From the NCBI GenBank assembly GCA_938044295.1, contig CALIRC010000120.1, forward strand, positions 1 through 35,245: a stretch of 35,245 bases of DNA, written 5' to 3'. The notes beneath the pieces are model-generated. The model was not told the DNA's origin, searched no databases, and saw nothing but the letters and a program-made list of their open reading frames with translations. Shown here in pieces: positions 14,072-19,059 of the stretch. The translations under genes and the position numbers were made by a program. This DNA is from Minisyncoccota bacterium (lineage in GTDB: Bacteria > Patescibacteriota > Minisyncoccia > Moranbacterales > GCA-2747515). Numbering within the stretch: the first letter of the stretch is position 1; every line of letters starts with the position of its first letter.

Positions 14072-15817
14072 ATGATGAGTCTATATACAAAATCTGTTAT
14101 AAAAAAAACACAGGTGTTGTCATTACTTATCTTCATAGGAATGTATGCATTTGGCGCCAATGAACTCCATGCAGTACATAAATTTGGATTTGTGCACAAT
14201 GGAAGCGAGATTGGTCCAGATGGACTTGACTGTCCTTTCTTAGATGTTGCAGGGGGTCAAATCATTGAATTTGGAAATCCACTTCTCAATCCACGCGATC
14301 CAGCTGTACCAGATTCTATCGCATATAATGTCGATATACCAGCAGGTGTATATTCCATTGACTTTTTCTCATGGTATTCAACGACCTGGCCATATCACCC
14401 ATATGGTGCTTCAGGTGTTCCGCGGAATCTCATGAGTCCAGTAGATGGAGAAAAATTTTTTCTAGAGTTTTACAATGCTGCAGGAGACTATGTGAGGAAC
14501 TCAAGTTACTCTTCGGACGTTCCAGATGATGCAGATCCAGGATTTAGGGCATCAAGGAGGCATAACCATTTGACACTAGGTGAAGATATAAAGCAGATTA
14601 AAATAACATCTAAATATATTCCTAGTCATTCACTACATAATGGTTCACCAGTTTTTGCAGGATGCATTCGCATGGCTGATATAACTGCAGGAGATGTCTG
14701 TGGAGATGGCATCACGGCACTGGATTTAAGTGAACAATGCGATGATGGCAATAGTATTGATGATGATTGGTGTAGTAATAGCTGTACATCGAACATTCCT
14801 GTTGATGGGATGGCATGTCCATTCACACCGGGACCAGATCAACGTGTTGTAAGCTTTAACAACACACGAATGGTTAAAGGATCACCATCAATGCAATATC
14901 CGACCCCAGTTATAATCAATGAGGTAATAGAGGCGGGCGTATATGATGCAGAAGTTTTTTCATGGGAATCTTATGTATGGAACTTGCCATATGGCATTTA
15001 TGGAGCAAAATCACGAAAAGACATGAACAGACCACAGTATACTGAGCAGTTTCATGTAGAATTCCGCAATGCAGAAGATGATATTATTGGACGCACTGCA
15101 GACTCTATAGATTTGCAGGATTTTCAAGAACCTGCGCGACAAATATCACAAGTCGCTCGAAATCTTACTTTACTTGAAGATTCACACAAAATGAGAATAT
15201 GGTTTGGGGATAATCAATGGCGAGCTGATGGCAAACCTGACGCATTTGGGAATCCATCCGTAAAGCAGGAAAGTCTTATTCCTGGTTGCATGCTTCTCAC
15301 GAAAAAACCACCACTACAATGTGCTGACAACGATAAAAATGGTGCGTGTGATCCTCCAAAAGACACAAATGATGACAAAATTCCAGATTATTGTTCCTCA
15401 AATGGCGCAAATAAAGATGTACGATGTGATATTCCACCGCTCAAGCAGTGCCCTGGATCAGCACCGATCGGAGACACCTGCGCAATATGCGAGGATTTAG
15501 ACAGTAACGGTATCTGTGATAATGATTGTCTAGATTTGGATGGTGATAAATATTGTGATCCAGAGTGTGGAAATGAGATAACTGAACCAAGCAATGGAGA
15601 AGAGTGTGATGCAGGACCATCAGGAAACGATGCATGTTCGTCAAGATGTAAGTTAAAAACAACTGACCCAAGTGTTGGCTGCACAGTAAACAGATGTGAT
15701 GGGGCGCAGTGTAAAGCAATTTTCGTACCAGGAGAAACATCAGGTGCTGCATGTAATAGTAAATGCAGCGATGATAGTGACTGTCAGTCAGGTTTTTACC
15801 TCGAAGTACTCCCTTAA
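14072..15817 (+). CDS. secreted cysteine-rich protein: duplicated ~155-aa domain, CGDG...CDDGN Cys-rich repeats, Asp-rich Ca-binding-like repeats, C-terminal six-Cys module ending EVLP
   Basis: 581 aa with signal peptide VLSLLIFIGMYAFGANELHA. The domain is duplicated at 14219-14674 and 14804-15298. Cys-rich modules at 14699-14785 (CGDGITALDLSEQCDDGNSIDDDWCSNSC) and 15566-15649 (CGNEITEPSNGEECDAGPSGNDACSSRC). DxDxDG-like tract at 15320-15565. Confidence 0.85.
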   Translation: MMSLYTKSVIKKTQVLSLLIFIGMYAFGANELHAVHKFGFVHNGSEIGPDGLDCPFLDVAGGQIIEFGNPLLNPRDPAVPDSIAYNVDIPAGVYSIDFFSWYSTTWPYHPYGASGVPRNLMSPVDGEKFFLEFYNAAGDYVRNSSYSSDVPDDADPGFRASRRHNHLTLGEDIKQIKITSKYIPSHSLHNGSPVFAGCIRMADITAGDVCGDGITALDLSEQCDDGNSIDDDWCSNSCTSNIPVDGMACPFTPGPDQRVVSFNNTRMVKGSPSMQYPTPVIINEVIEAGVYDAEVFSWESYVWNLPYGIYGAKSRKDMNRPQYTEQFHVEFRNAEDDIIGRTADSIDLQDFQEPARQISQVARNLTLLEDSHKMRIWFGDNQWRADGKPDAFGNPSVKQESLIPGCMLLTKKPPLQCADNDKNGACDPPKDTNDDKIPDYCSSNGANKDVRCDIPPLKQCPGSAPIGDTCAICEDLDSNGICDNDCLDLDGDKYCDPECGNEITEPSNGEECDAGPSGNDACSSRCKLKTTDPSVGCTVNRCDGAQCKAIFVPGETSGAACNSKCSDDSDCQSGFYLEVLP

Positions 15818-15957
15818 AATATCTTGTCCAAAAATATGAGCAAAATCACACTCAATAAAAAATCAAAAAAATGAGCATAGAGAAATCACCACTCGAAGAA
15901 AGAATGAAAAAAAATAAACTTTATCCACAGAAGAAAAAATACAAATAAATTAGGTGG

Positions 15958-19000: not shown

Positions 19001-19059
19001 CATGCGTAGATGACTGCAGCGACTGTCAAGATGCTTATGCAGAAGAAGTGCAACCATAA
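16015..19059 (+). CDS. large surface protein: signal peptide, beta-sandwich-like N-terminal half, internal TM hairpin, Cys-rich repeat C-terminal half, six-Cys module ending EEVQP
   Basis: 1014 aa with N-terminal signal/anchor LVGIIALSGILLFATASAIA. Residues 427-477 are PIAMIVIIGSILLAVIILLLGKKKKNTVNALLGIAIGGTLLLSAPQSAQALS. Four CG...WxWxC repeats at 17863-18566. A strong terminator follows 30 nt after the stop. Confidence 0.85.
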   Translation: MVRLLRSGLVGIIALSGILLFATASAIASSDKIIGSNDKIKIISGVNIPEANLLPGENNDYVINITIRNEGDKIESSLNYGVILYQPKENGGKAVDEVYANESFSLAPGETVIKQITYTPPHAFKGNYTIGASVVNTSGLLLAPASVGAITLENTGGALYIDTAKCAVKIVGVEESYTLTHGIDIASAESIYAECPVENQSANDIDFQIQANIHDRSHAGKVVETQRFDVESIESESTKIMRFNVPKIDRAQAYSARFDLLSEEEMISNPVLMHFVVQGPSANVQHVRFDKESYSKGDTAVVTVSIASRADTFQNSRYEKAMQDRTEISKLTYDVTTQIEGCSKAVKTSMGHGSEIGHTHEIPVPIDKKCKNPQVSVTIEDTSGGTLDKKMFAAEKSDGSTSQNTVNNNLPANTEESTKADHKSVKPIAMIVIIGSILLAVIILLLGKKKKNTVNALLGIAIGGTLLLSAPQSAQALSIDAGLKGSNGQAIYTYSVIGSCNPKITGTLGQWGCGNKPNDICSVVKIDESDIADFDGDQSNALVEASLPNGDKDGSHSAKLSLLTWGHCEYDPSSPLYGPDRTDKSVEYTVSCGTPSKCTYKLSDNKYVSSMPSSAKCTNDGIPKDEKYDPATGAWTWQCAPATGTSPWDGNCGAYKVKTVGKCGPSNGTKPITSNPIAGTKAACTRGTFSDLPNDTDGISPTPTKFNWECLGSDGDNDSCSAPNQDYVTPTKGVCGTASGAEFSHPPTTNRCEAGSTVVSIADGGYSWYCKGAGEGPLSPQCVAKKPSVTPLCGPADTQSHLFVAPNDADLCGPGLTAVKENFGDPTAAKWIWRCQNAAGDLSTQCNAAKNCVADNQYACNGKCATISIEGEDTVNFSRDGSPVKTSQKVIATDPSCIESCIIDGQSVPLSSVNTDVYELEVTHSPAGDKKITKCILREPTECGEVLHDPNDPDCKKPEVEEEKTVQCVCVARQCSDAGKCVSTRVFGASGPTDSACVDDCSDCQDAYAEEVQP
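17863..18566 (+). repeat. four tandem ~45-70-aa cysteine-rich repeats (C-G-x-x-x-G ... W-x-W-x-C ... C-x-A)
   Basis: Repeat ends: ...GAWTWQCAPATGTSPWDGNCGA; KCGPSNGTK...TKFNWECLGSDGDNDSCSA; VCGTASGAE...GYSWYCKGAGEGPLSPQCVA; LCGPADTQS...AKWIWRCQNAAGDLSTQCNA. Confidence 0.8.

What the first reader, a model, noticed from the sequence alone, without database searches (positions are those of the whole stretch)
15674..19056. Two adjacent giant proteins share a six-Cys C-terminal module that ends exactly at E-V-x-P
**The two sequences.**
- Last 47 aa of the 581-aa protein (15674-15814): VGCTVNRCDGAQCKAIFVPGETSGAACNSKCSDDSDCQSGFYLEVLP.
- Last 49 aa of the 1014-aa protein (18910-19056): VQCVCVARQCSDAGKCVSTRVFGASGPTDSACVDDCSDCQDAYAEEVQP.

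**Alignment.** They align with six conserved Cys, a central G, the string AC-x3-CSD-x-(D)CQ, an aromatic residue, and a terminal E-V-x-P immediately before the stop codon.

**Interpretation.** The module is hydrophilic, so it is unlike PEP-CTERM, LPXTG or MYXO-CTERM sorting tags. A short conserved domain fixed at the extreme C-terminus of otherwise different secreted proteins suggests a sorting, processing or anchoring signal, or a common docking module.
Basis: seen in the sequence. Interest (0 to 1): 0.66.

Follow-up and report, generated by a model that had tools for sequence, protein, structure and literature searches.

The report
Shared six-cysteine tail on secreted proteins
Two neighbouring cysteine-rich secreted proteins end in the same small six-cysteine module that stops at Glu-Val-x-Pro, and the same ending occurs on several unrelated secreted proteins in one other uncultured bacterial lineage, so it is a real, rare and undescribed C-terminal domain whose job, probably docking or retention at the cell surface, is still unknown.

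Summary
ORF 14072-15817 (581 aa) ends ...DCQSGFYLEVLP and ORF 16015-19059 (1014 aa) ends ...DCQDAYAEEVQP, both before TAA. The two tails are more alike than their composition explains (z 6.1, 0 of 20,000 shuffles). No other frame in the window ends in E[VIL]xP.

The only detectable homologue of the 1014-aa protein is P0007, found through its N-terminal half. It also ends in six Cys plus ...DCRKFWKEVAP. A tail profile searched against 1.84 billion proteins found three more proteins. All three matches end at the last residue, and the N-terminal architectures differ. These three are near-copies of the P0007 tail, and cross-validation shows that profiles cannot bridge the tail types. The count is therefore a lower bound, and the link between the two lineages rests on the motif and its position.

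The tail matches nothing in Pfam, NCBIfam or PDB. It is not DUF4215 and has no hydrophobic segment. No sortase-like partner was seen, and AlphaFold2 models were unusable.

My best reading is an undescribed disulfide-bonded extracellular mini-domain that acts as a common docking, retention or oligomerisation module. A sorting or processing tag is not supported. Interest is moderate.

The parts
14072..15817 (+). P1, a 581-aa secreted Cys-rich protein (28 Cys). It has a signal peptide, two copies of a ~150-aa domain each followed by a DUF4215/myxo_disulf_rpt repeat, Asp-rich Cys repeats, and the tail.
   Evidence: ORF. TIGR02232 at 1.8e-6 and PF13948 at 5e-5, best stretch at aa 209-239. It is an orphan apart from that repeat.
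14072..14173 (+). P1 N-terminal signal peptide (MMSLYTKSVIKKTQVLSLLIFIGMYAFGANELHA).
   Evidence: Read from the sequence: basic n-region, hydrophobic core, small residues before the presumed cleavage site. No predictor was run.
15677..15814 (+). P1 tail module: GCTVNRCDGAQCKAIFVPGETSGAACNSKCSDDSDCQSGFYLEVLP. Spacing C-x4-C-x4-C-x13-C-x3-C-x5-C, then x3-FY-L-EVLP-COOH.
   Evidence: Profile match 535-580 of 580, ending at the last residue.
16015..19059 (+). P2, a 1014-aa Cys-rich surface protein (40 Cys). It has a signal peptide, a CARDB-like N-terminal ectodomain, a hydrophobic hairpin, four CG..WxWxC units, and the tail.
   Evidence: ORF. Weak CARDB hit. Its single homologue is P0007, E 1.8e-36 over the N-terminal 37%. 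Alignment.
16015..16098 (+). P2 N-terminal signal peptide (MVRLLRSGLVGIIALSGILLFATASAIA).
   Evidence: Hydrophobic window at aa 1-30.
17293..17442 (+). P2 mid-protein hydrophobic hairpin: a TM helix, then KKKK, then a second hydrophobic stretch ending AQA|L. This would place both halves of the protein outside the cell.
   Evidence: The same arrangement occurs in P0007 (TM, RRR, second helix ending VRA|D).
18916..19056 (+). P2 tail module: CVCVARQCSDAGKCVSTRVFGASGPTDSACVDDCSDCQDAYAEEVQP. Spacing C-x4-C-x5-C-x15-C-x3-C-x2-C, then x3-Y-AE-EVQP-COOH.
   Evidence: Profile match 968-1014 of 1014.
15803..15817 (+). Codons for E-V-L-P plus the TAA stop of P1.
   Evidence: gaa gta ctc cct taa.
19045..19059 (+). 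Codons for E-V-Q-P plus the TAA stop of P2.
   Evidence: gaa gtg caa cca taa.
19086..19119 (+). Hairpin followed by a T-run after the P2 stop; a likely intrinsic terminator that closes the two-gene unit.
   Evidence: aaaaccctatacgc-tcct-gcgtatagggtttt, read. The simple scanner did not flag it.

Best explanation
The two tails are copies of a real, previously undescribed extracellular mini-domain of about 41-47 residues. It has six ordered cysteines: C-x4-5-C-x4-5-C-x4-15-C-x3-C-x2-8-(D)C. I infer that these form three disulfides.

After the last Cys come 9-10 residues with an aromatic residue and an invariant E-V-x-P. The protein ends there, leaving a free carboxylate.

The module is always the last element of Sec-exported, otherwise Cys-rich surface proteins of differing architecture.

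Most likely function (inferred): a common docking, retention or oligomerisation handle. In both lineages, one carrier is held in the membrane by a hydrophobic hairpin (P2, P0007). The other carriers have only a signal peptide (P1, P0008, P0009; P0010 is N-terminally incomplete). A shared tail would let the soluble proteins be held by the same partner as the anchored one, or by the anchored one itself. The exposed aromatic-x-x-E-V-x-P end would be part of the recognised surface, and the terminal Pro would protect it from carboxypeptidases.

Shown: the module exists, its position, its recurrence on different architectures, and the absence of a hydrophobic anchor.

Inferred: the disulfides, extracellular exposure, and the docking role.
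For: - The P1 and P2 tails are significantly alike beyond composition (BLASTP alignment).
- Out-of-sample test: P0007 was found only through N-terminal homology to P2 (E 1.8e-36). It ends ...C-x5-C-x5-C-x4-C-x3-C-x8-C-RKFWKEVAP. The chance of EVxP there is about 1.7e-4, and the chance of at least 6 Cys in its last 41 aa is 5e-4.
- The profile search of 1.84e9 representatives gave 6 proteins at E<=1e-3. Every match ran to the last residue.
- P0008, P0009 and P0010 have different N-terminal architectures. P0008 and P0009 start with signal peptides; P0010's N-terminus is incomplete, because its reading frame is open to the contig start.
- The tails are hydrophilic (mean Kyte-Doolittle -0.14 to -0.44) with no hydrophobic window.
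- P1 and P2 are the only Cys-rich proteins in the window, which fits an oxidised extracytoplasmic location.
- In lineage B the cassette is kept nearly identical among paralogues (94.8% and 99.0%). The same locus differs by about 19% between strain sets. This implies homogenisation of a shared functional end.
- There are no internal copies in any carrier.
Against: - No partner or receptor was identified, and no neighbour gene is shared between lineages.
- Neither HMMER profiles nor BLASTP connect the window tails to the lineage-B tails. Without EVxP, the similarity of P1 or P2 to P0007 is not significant. Homology of the three tail types therefore rests on motif, Cys spacing and position.
- There is no usable structure: pLDDT 49 and 52.
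- P2 and P0007 already have membrane anchors, so the tail is not needed to retain them.
Confidence: 0.4

Rival explanations
1. Plain structural cap. The tail is simply the last disulfide-rich unit of Cys-rich stalk proteins. It is conserved because its fold needs the six Cys and a terminal strand (aromatic-x-x-E-V-x-P), and it has no recognition role. Its spread among paralogues reflects domain duplication and gene conversion.
For: - All carriers are Cys-rich throughout.
- The low-confidence models place short beta-strands up to the end.
- Gene conversion alone can keep paralogue ends identical.
- No partner gene was found.
Against: - The module sits on at least four unrelated architectures and never internally. 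That is unusual for a generic structural repeat.
- The four terminal residues are invariant across about 33% identical tails and across two lineages, while the loops vary from 2 to 15 residues.
Confidence: 0.3
2. Dedicated sorting or processing signal. A lineage-specific enzyme (protease or transpeptidase) recognises the tail or its EVxP end, then cleaves it or attaches the protein to the envelope.
For: - Strict C-terminal position, an invariant short terminal motif and presence on diverse exported cargo. These are the hallmarks used to discover sorting tags.
Against: - There is no transmembrane helix or basic tail after the motif, and nothing follows the motif that could be cleaved off.
- No match to any NCBIfam C-terminal sorting-domain model at E<=10.
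- No sortase, exosortase or rhombosortase-like gene in 35 kb of the window or about 60 kb of lineage-B loci.
- Monoderm-type cells would not need a second export signal.
Confidence: 0.12
3. Metal-binding cysteine cluster. In anaerobic organisms the six Cys bind Zn or Fe-S rather than forming disulfides.
For: - Lineage B encodes an anaerobic ribonucleotide reductase, so its habitat may be anoxic.
- Six closely spaced Cys are present.
Against: - The spacing lacks paired CxxC knuckles, and loop lengths vary widely.
- The carriers are Sec-exported with dozens of other Cys in extracellular repeats such as DUF4215.
Confidence: 0.08
4. Chance or compositional resemblance between two Cys-rich tails, with no common origin.
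For: - BLASTP E is only 0.11.
- The HMMER single-sequence P1 profile does not retrieve P2.
Against: - Composition-preserving shuffles: 0 of 20,000 reach the real score.
- Probability of an adjacent EVxP pair is about 7e-7.
- The motif was found again in P0007.
Confidence: 0.03

Closest known systems
C-terminal cystine-knot (CTCK) domain of mucins and von Willebrand factor (comparison from my own knowledge)
   Same: It is a Cys-rich module fixed at the extreme C-terminus of large secreted Cys-rich proteins, where it mediates disulfide-linked oligomerisation. This is the same kind of job proposed here.
   Different: CTCK is about 90 aa with about 11 Cys and is eukaryotic. This tail is 41-47 aa with six Cys, gave no Pfam hit at E<=10, and has an invariant EVxP end that CTCK lacks.
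Six-Cys mini-domains: inhibitor cystine knot (knottin) and EGF-like
   Same: Six ordered Cys in about 40 residues. As I recall the ICK consensus, the lineage-B spacing C-x5-C-x5-C-x4-C-x3-C-x8-C falls inside it.
   Different: P1 and P2 have C3-C4 loops of 13-15 residues, and P2 has a C5-C6 loop of 2, both outside that consensus. EGF has C4-x-C5, whereas here it is C4-x3-C5. No Pfam or PDB sequence hit. Connectivity is unknown.
Tripartite C-terminal sorting signals (LPXTG/sortase, PEP-CTERM/exosortase, MYXO-CTERM, GlyGly-CTERM/rhombosortase, PGF-CTERM/archaeosortase)
   Same: A short conserved signature at the C-terminus of many different exported proteins within a genome.
   Different: Those have motif, then TM helix, then basic tail, and they are cleaved. 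This tail is hydrophilic, the motif is the very last four residues, no NCBIfam model hits it, and no cognate enzyme was seen.
DUF4215 / myxo_disulf_rpt (PF13948, TIGR02232)
   Same: An acidic Cys-rich extracellular repeat. It is present in P1 immediately upstream of the tail and shares a C-x3-C element.
   Different: Four Cys per unit, with CGDG and CDDGN signatures. hhalign of tail against repeat gives probability 3%.
Dockerin, SLH and other non-covalent C-terminal retention modules of monoderm surface proteins (own knowledge)
   Same: A hydrophilic C-terminal module shared by diverse secreted proteins that docks them to a common surface partner. This is the proposed mode of action.
   Different: No sequence relationship. 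Those modules are Ca-binding or larger and lack cysteines. No cohesin-like partner is known here.
Giardia variant-specific surface proteins (own knowledge; they appeared in the paper list)
   Same: A family of variable Cys-rich surface proteins with an invariant C-terminal end. The conserved 3' ends coexist with fast-evolving bodies, as in lineage B.
   Different: The VSP end is a TM helix plus a cytoplasmic CRGKA. Those proteins are eukaryotic and unrelated in sequence.

Membership tests
The tail family itself (six-Cys, EVxP-COOH) | Located at the extreme C-terminus, ending at the last residue | tested here: met
   All 6 proteins with E<=1e-3 match through their last residue. Additional copies are L008:3-422 and L011:1-408. 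There are no internal copies.
The tail family itself (six-Cys, EVxP-COOH) | Six ordered Cys, C-x4-5-C-x4-5-C-x4-15-C-x3-C-x2-8-(D)C, then an aromatic residue and E-V-x-P | tested here: met
   Read directly in P1, P2 and P0007-P0012.
The tail family itself (six-Cys, EVxP-COOH) | Statistically supported sequence homology among all three tail types | tested here: inconclusive
   P1-P2: z 6.1. P1-P0007 and P2-P0007: z about 3, and not significant without EVxP. HMM cross-validation and BLASTP fail between lineages. The link relies on P2-P0007 N-terminal homology plus the motif.
The tail family itself (six-Cys, EVxP-COOH) | Carrier has an N-terminal export signal | tested here: met
   P1, P2, P0008, P0009 and P0011 show typical signal peptides by eye. 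P0007 has one only if an upstream TTG start is used. The P0010 N-terminus is incomplete. No predictor was run.
Sortase/exosortase/rhombosortase-type C-terminal sorting domains | Signature motif followed by a hydrophobic TM helix and a basic tail | tested here: not met
   No hydrophobic window in the tails; mean KD -0.14 to -0.44. The stop codon follows the motif directly.
Sortase/exosortase/rhombosortase-type C-terminal sorting domains | Match to a curated NCBIfam sorting-domain model | tested here: not met
   No hit at E<=1 for the whole proteins or at E<=10 for the six tails.
Sortase/exosortase/rhombosortase-type C-terminal sorting domains | Cognate processing enzyme encoded in the genome | not testable with these tools
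   Only 35 kb of the source genome is available. None was seen there or in the lineage-B loci.
DUF4215 / myxo_disulf_rpt | Profile match (CGDG...CDDGN...DGC-x3-C) | tested here: not met
   The Pfam and NCBIfam hits in P1 lie at aa 209-239, with a second repeat upstream of the tail. hhalign of tail against 13 repeats gives probability 3%.
EGF-like / CTCK / other Pfam Cys-rich domains | Pfam profile match | tested here: not met
   Six tails scanned at E<=10 gave only one spurious DsbA_N hit. PDB profile search gave 0 hits at E<=10.
Inhibitor cystine knot (knottin) | Cys spacing within the ICK consensus and 1-4, 2-5, 3-6 connectivity | tested here: inconclusive
   The spacing fits for the lineage-B tails but not for P1 or P2 (long C3-C4 loop). 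Connectivity could not be assessed because the AF2 models have pLDDT 49-52. The consensus is recalled from memory.
T9SS C-terminal domain | An 80-100 aa beta-sandwich CTD matching the TIGR04183/Por_Secre_tail models | tested here: not met
   No NCBIfam or Pfam hit. The module is only 41-47 aa.

The most novel reading that the evidence does not exclude
The tail is a new kind of hydrophilic C-terminal address tag in uncultured, probably monoderm, small-genome bacteria. It would be a disulfide-locked knot presenting a free ...aromatic-x-x-E-V-x-P carboxy-terminus. A dedicated surface receptor or enzyme would read that end to assemble a multi-protein surface layer from soluble and membrane-anchored cargo. 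This would be a sorting and docking system with no transmembrane step and no relation to the sortase or exosortase families.
Probability: 0.15. Interest if true: 0.65.

Novelty: new variant of a known kind. Interest (0 to 1): 0.4.

Why it matters
Little is known about how uncultured, small-genome bacteria build and organise their surface proteins. A short module shared by membrane-anchored and soluble Cys-rich exoproteins gives a concrete handle for finding the partners that hold this surface together. It could be used as bait, as an epitope, or as a search motif. It would also add an unannotated domain family to Pfam or NCBIfam.

The lineage-B data suggest that the module is kept uniform within a genome while the adjoining exposed domain diverges quickly between strains. 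That pattern is typical of surface proteins under host, phage or partner pressure.

If the module turns out to be only a structural cap, the practical gain is limited to better annotation.

Tried and rejected
1. Whole-protein homology searches. P1 has no homologues apart from hits through its DUF4215 repeats. P2 has one homologue. Re-searching with the P2+P0007 alignment added nothing.

2. Genome-contig scan with the neighbouring ArgRS, to find syntenic relatives and the organism.

3. Metagenome contigs.
   - The four lineage-B tails only re-found L001.

4. Known-family checks.
   - Pfam, NCBIfam and PDB searches of the tails found nothing.
   - PDB search with whole P1 found nothing.
   - DUF4215 relationship was rejected by hhalign.

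5. AlphaFold2. I ran the lineage-B tail with a 6-sequence alignment, and P1 aa 490-581 alone. pLDDT was 49 and 52, so I ran no fold search.

6. Profile cross-validation between tail types failed. BLASTP with composition correction did not align the tails between lineages. I therefore do not claim sequence-statistical homology across lineages.

7. Alternative genetic code or readthrough was rejected. The stops are TAA, TAA and TAG, and the ORFs are intact under table 11.

8. Rfam, tRNA and promoter/terminator scans added nothing relevant.

9. Literature searches for 'EVxP', for Cys-rich C-terminal modules in candidate phyla radiation bacteria, and for the ICK spacing consensus found nothing pertinent.

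10. Taxonomy of either lineage could not be established. No cluster member carried an organism name.
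Full report
**1. The observation**

The window encodes two adjacent same-strand ORFs. P1 is 14072-15817 (581 aa) and P2 is 16015-19059 (1014 aa).

BLASTP aligns the last ~48 residues with all six Cys in register. The alignment shows AC-x3-CSD, DCQ, an aromatic residue and EVxP, with 16/48 identical. Across the two whole proteins the E-value is only 0.11.

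Cys-rich sequences align easily, so I tested a C-terminus-anchored global alignment against 20,000 composition-preserving shuffles:

| Tail pair | With EVxP | EVxP removed |
|---|---|---|
| P1-P2 | z = 6.1, none reached the real score | z = 4.1, 13 of 20,000 |
| P1-P0007 | z = 3.2 | not significant |
| P2-P0007 | z = 2.7 | not significant |

Among 228 stop-to-stop frames of at least 50 aa in the window, only these two end in E[VIL]xP. With the window's own amino-acid frequencies, EVxP at a given C-terminus has p = 1.7e-4, and an adjacent pair about 7e-7.

'Giant' is an overstatement, and the P2 tail has an extra seventh Cys.

**2. What the carriers are**

- **P1** has a signal peptide, two copies of a ~150-aa domain each followed by a DUF4215/myxo_disulf_rpt repeat (TIGR02232 1.8e-6, PF13948 5e-5), Asp-rich Cys repeats, and then the tail.
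- **P2** has a signal peptide and a weakly CARDB-like N-terminal region. A mid-protein hydrophobic hairpin follows: TM, KKKK, then a second hydrophobic stretch ending AQA|L. After that come four CG..WxWxC units and the tail.
- Together they hold 68 Cys. The other 23 proteins of the window have 0-8 each.
- The surrounding genes are housekeeping: ArgRS, FtsW, L25, IleRS, RecO, TGT, ProRS, glycosyltransferases and a peptidase M29. There is no sortase-like or other candidate processing enzyme.
- The tails are hydrophilic and have no hydrophobic window.

**3. Is the module found elsewhere?**

P1 is an orphan apart from its DUF4215 repeats. P2 has a single detectable homologue among 5.8 billion clustered proteins. 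This is P0007, 1010 aa, E 1.8e-36, 27% identity over the N-terminal 37%.

P0007 was recovered without any contribution from the tail, so it is an out-of-sample test. It ends ...YCNPTTTCTASDICEGESCDNGCDVITGTKDCRKFWKEVAP. That is six Cys with spacing C-x5-C-x5-C-x4-C-x3-C-x8-C, then D-C, aromatic residues and EVxP at the very end. The probability of at least 6 Cys in its last 41 residues is 5e-4, and of EVxP 1.7e-4. It also has the same mid-protein hairpin as P2.

A three-tail profile searched exhaustively against 1.84 billion representatives gave six proteins at E<=1e-3. They are the three training sequences plus P0008 (521 aa), P0009 (659 aa) and P0010 (527 aa). Every match runs to the last residue.

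The new proteins have different N-terminal architectures. P0008 and P0009 begin with clear signal peptides. The module is neither internal nor confined to the two paralogues.

**4. Limits of that result**

The three new tails are near-identical to the P0007 tail, more than 90% at the DNA level and including about 10 nt past the TAG stop. Local cross-validation is sobering:

- A profile of P1+P2 does not retrieve the lineage-B tails (E > 200).
- The lineage-B profile does not retrieve P1 or P2.
- A P1-only profile does not retrieve P2.

BLASTP with composition correction also does not align the tails between lineages. The pairwise shuffle results for P0007 in the table above point the same way.

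Two consequences follow:

- 'Six in 1.84 billion' is a lower bound from an insensitive search, not evidence of rarity.
- The connection between the window and lineage B rests on position, Cys-spacing class, the D-C/aromatic/EVxP signature, and the full-length relationship of P2 and P0007.

Lineage B has 52% GC against 39% for the window, so these are distinct organisms. Neither could be named.

**5. Comparison with known families**

- The tails match nothing in Pfam or NCBIfam at E<=10 and nothing in PDB sequences.
- hhalign against 13 DUF4215 repeats gives probability 3%.
- They lack the motif, TM helix and basic-tail layout of the LPXTG, PEP-CTERM, MYXO-CTERM, GlyGly-CTERM and PGF-CTERM signals. 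They are also far smaller than a T9SS C-terminal domain.
- From memory, the lineage-B spacing fits the knottin consensus. P1 and P2, with C3-C4 loops of 13-15 residues, do not. EGF-like domains have C4-x-C5 rather than C4-x3-C5.
- AlphaFold2 gave pLDDT 49 for the lineage-B tail with a 6-sequence alignment, and 52 for P1 aa 490-581 alone. No fold comparison was justified.

**6. Mechanism**

Shown:
- A conserved hydrophilic six-Cys module, always terminal.
- It sits on Sec-type exported Cys-rich proteins of at least four architectures in two lineages.
- Each lineage has one hairpin-anchored carrier and one or more carriers with only a signal peptide.

Inferred:
- Three disulfides in an extracellular mini-domain.
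- A free ...aromatic-x-x-E-V-x-P end that is recognised by a common partner, or by another tail, so that the module docks, retains or oligomerises surface proteins.

Functionally, the nearest analogues are the C-terminal cystine-knot domain of mucins and vWF, and non-covalent retention modules such as dockerins. Neither is related in sequence.

The main rival is a purely structural terminal cap. A sorting or processing tag is less likely, for three reasons:
- Nothing follows the motif that could be cleaved off.
- No anchor segment exists.
- No enzyme candidate or conserved neighbour appears in any locus.

**7. Verdict**

The feature is real and absent from current domain libraries, so it is worth naming. 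It is known from only two lineages and has no demonstrated function or partner. I rate it as a new variant of a known kind (a small disulfide-rich C-terminal module) with moderate interest.

Noticed in passing
L001:4291-4695, L005:1228-1632, L008:18-422, L011:4-408, L004:2355-2759: Concerted evolution of the 3' cassette (Ig-like domain plus tail) in lineage B. The last 405 nt at two different loci are 94.8% identical in one strain set (L001/L005) and 99.0% in the other (L008/L011). Between the sets, the same locus is only about 81% identical, although the flanking enolase and CoA-ligase genes are 98% identical. Whether the paired loci come from one genome is inferred, because the samples differ.
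   Followed up: partly
L008:1-25 and L011:1-10: Two independent contigs (44 kb and 35.7 kb) both begin exactly at the start of the shared cassette (SSLPLPTATLSLNPNP...). L005 also begins just upstream of its tail-bearing gene. Assemblies appear to break at this multi-copy repeat.
   Followed up: partly
L001:4693-4705 and the equivalent positions in L004, L005, L006: DNA identity among the lineage-B tails continues about 10 nt past the stop codon (TAGGGAGGGG). The shared unit therefore includes the stop and a short 3' flank.
   Followed up: no
window 17293-17442 (P2 aa 427-476); P0007 aa ~425-470: A mid-protein hydrophobic hairpin: TM helix, a KKKK or RRR loop, then a second hydrophobic stretch ending in an AxA-like site (AQA|L, VRA|D). 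It looks like an internal signal peptide. If cleaved, the Cys-rich C-terminal half would be released as a separate secreted polypeptide.
   Followed up: no
window ~17780-18560 (P2 aa ~590-850): Four tandem ~55-aa units of the form CG...C..G...W.W.C....C, with no Pfam match. One unit aligns to P0007 (BLASTP 2.4e-7), and similar units occur in P0008 and P0010.
   Followed up: partly
window 14072-15817: P1 contains an internal duplication of a ~150-aa domain (about aa 40-200 and aa 245-400). Each copy is followed by a DUF4215 repeat. P1 also has Asp-rich, thrombospondin-type-3-like Cys repeats (aa ~417-495). None of the large domains has a homologue in the databases searched.
   Followed up: no
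window 1-35245: The ArgRS-based scan of the genome-contig collection (one genome per GTDB species) found no close relative. P1 and P2 are each a singleton in the 15-billion-protein collection. There are no tRNA genes and no Rfam hits in 35 kb.
   Followed up: partly
window 13459-14037: A 192-aa ORF immediately upstream of P1 has an N-terminal membrane anchor and no family match. It could belong to the same unit as P1 and P2.
   Followed up: no
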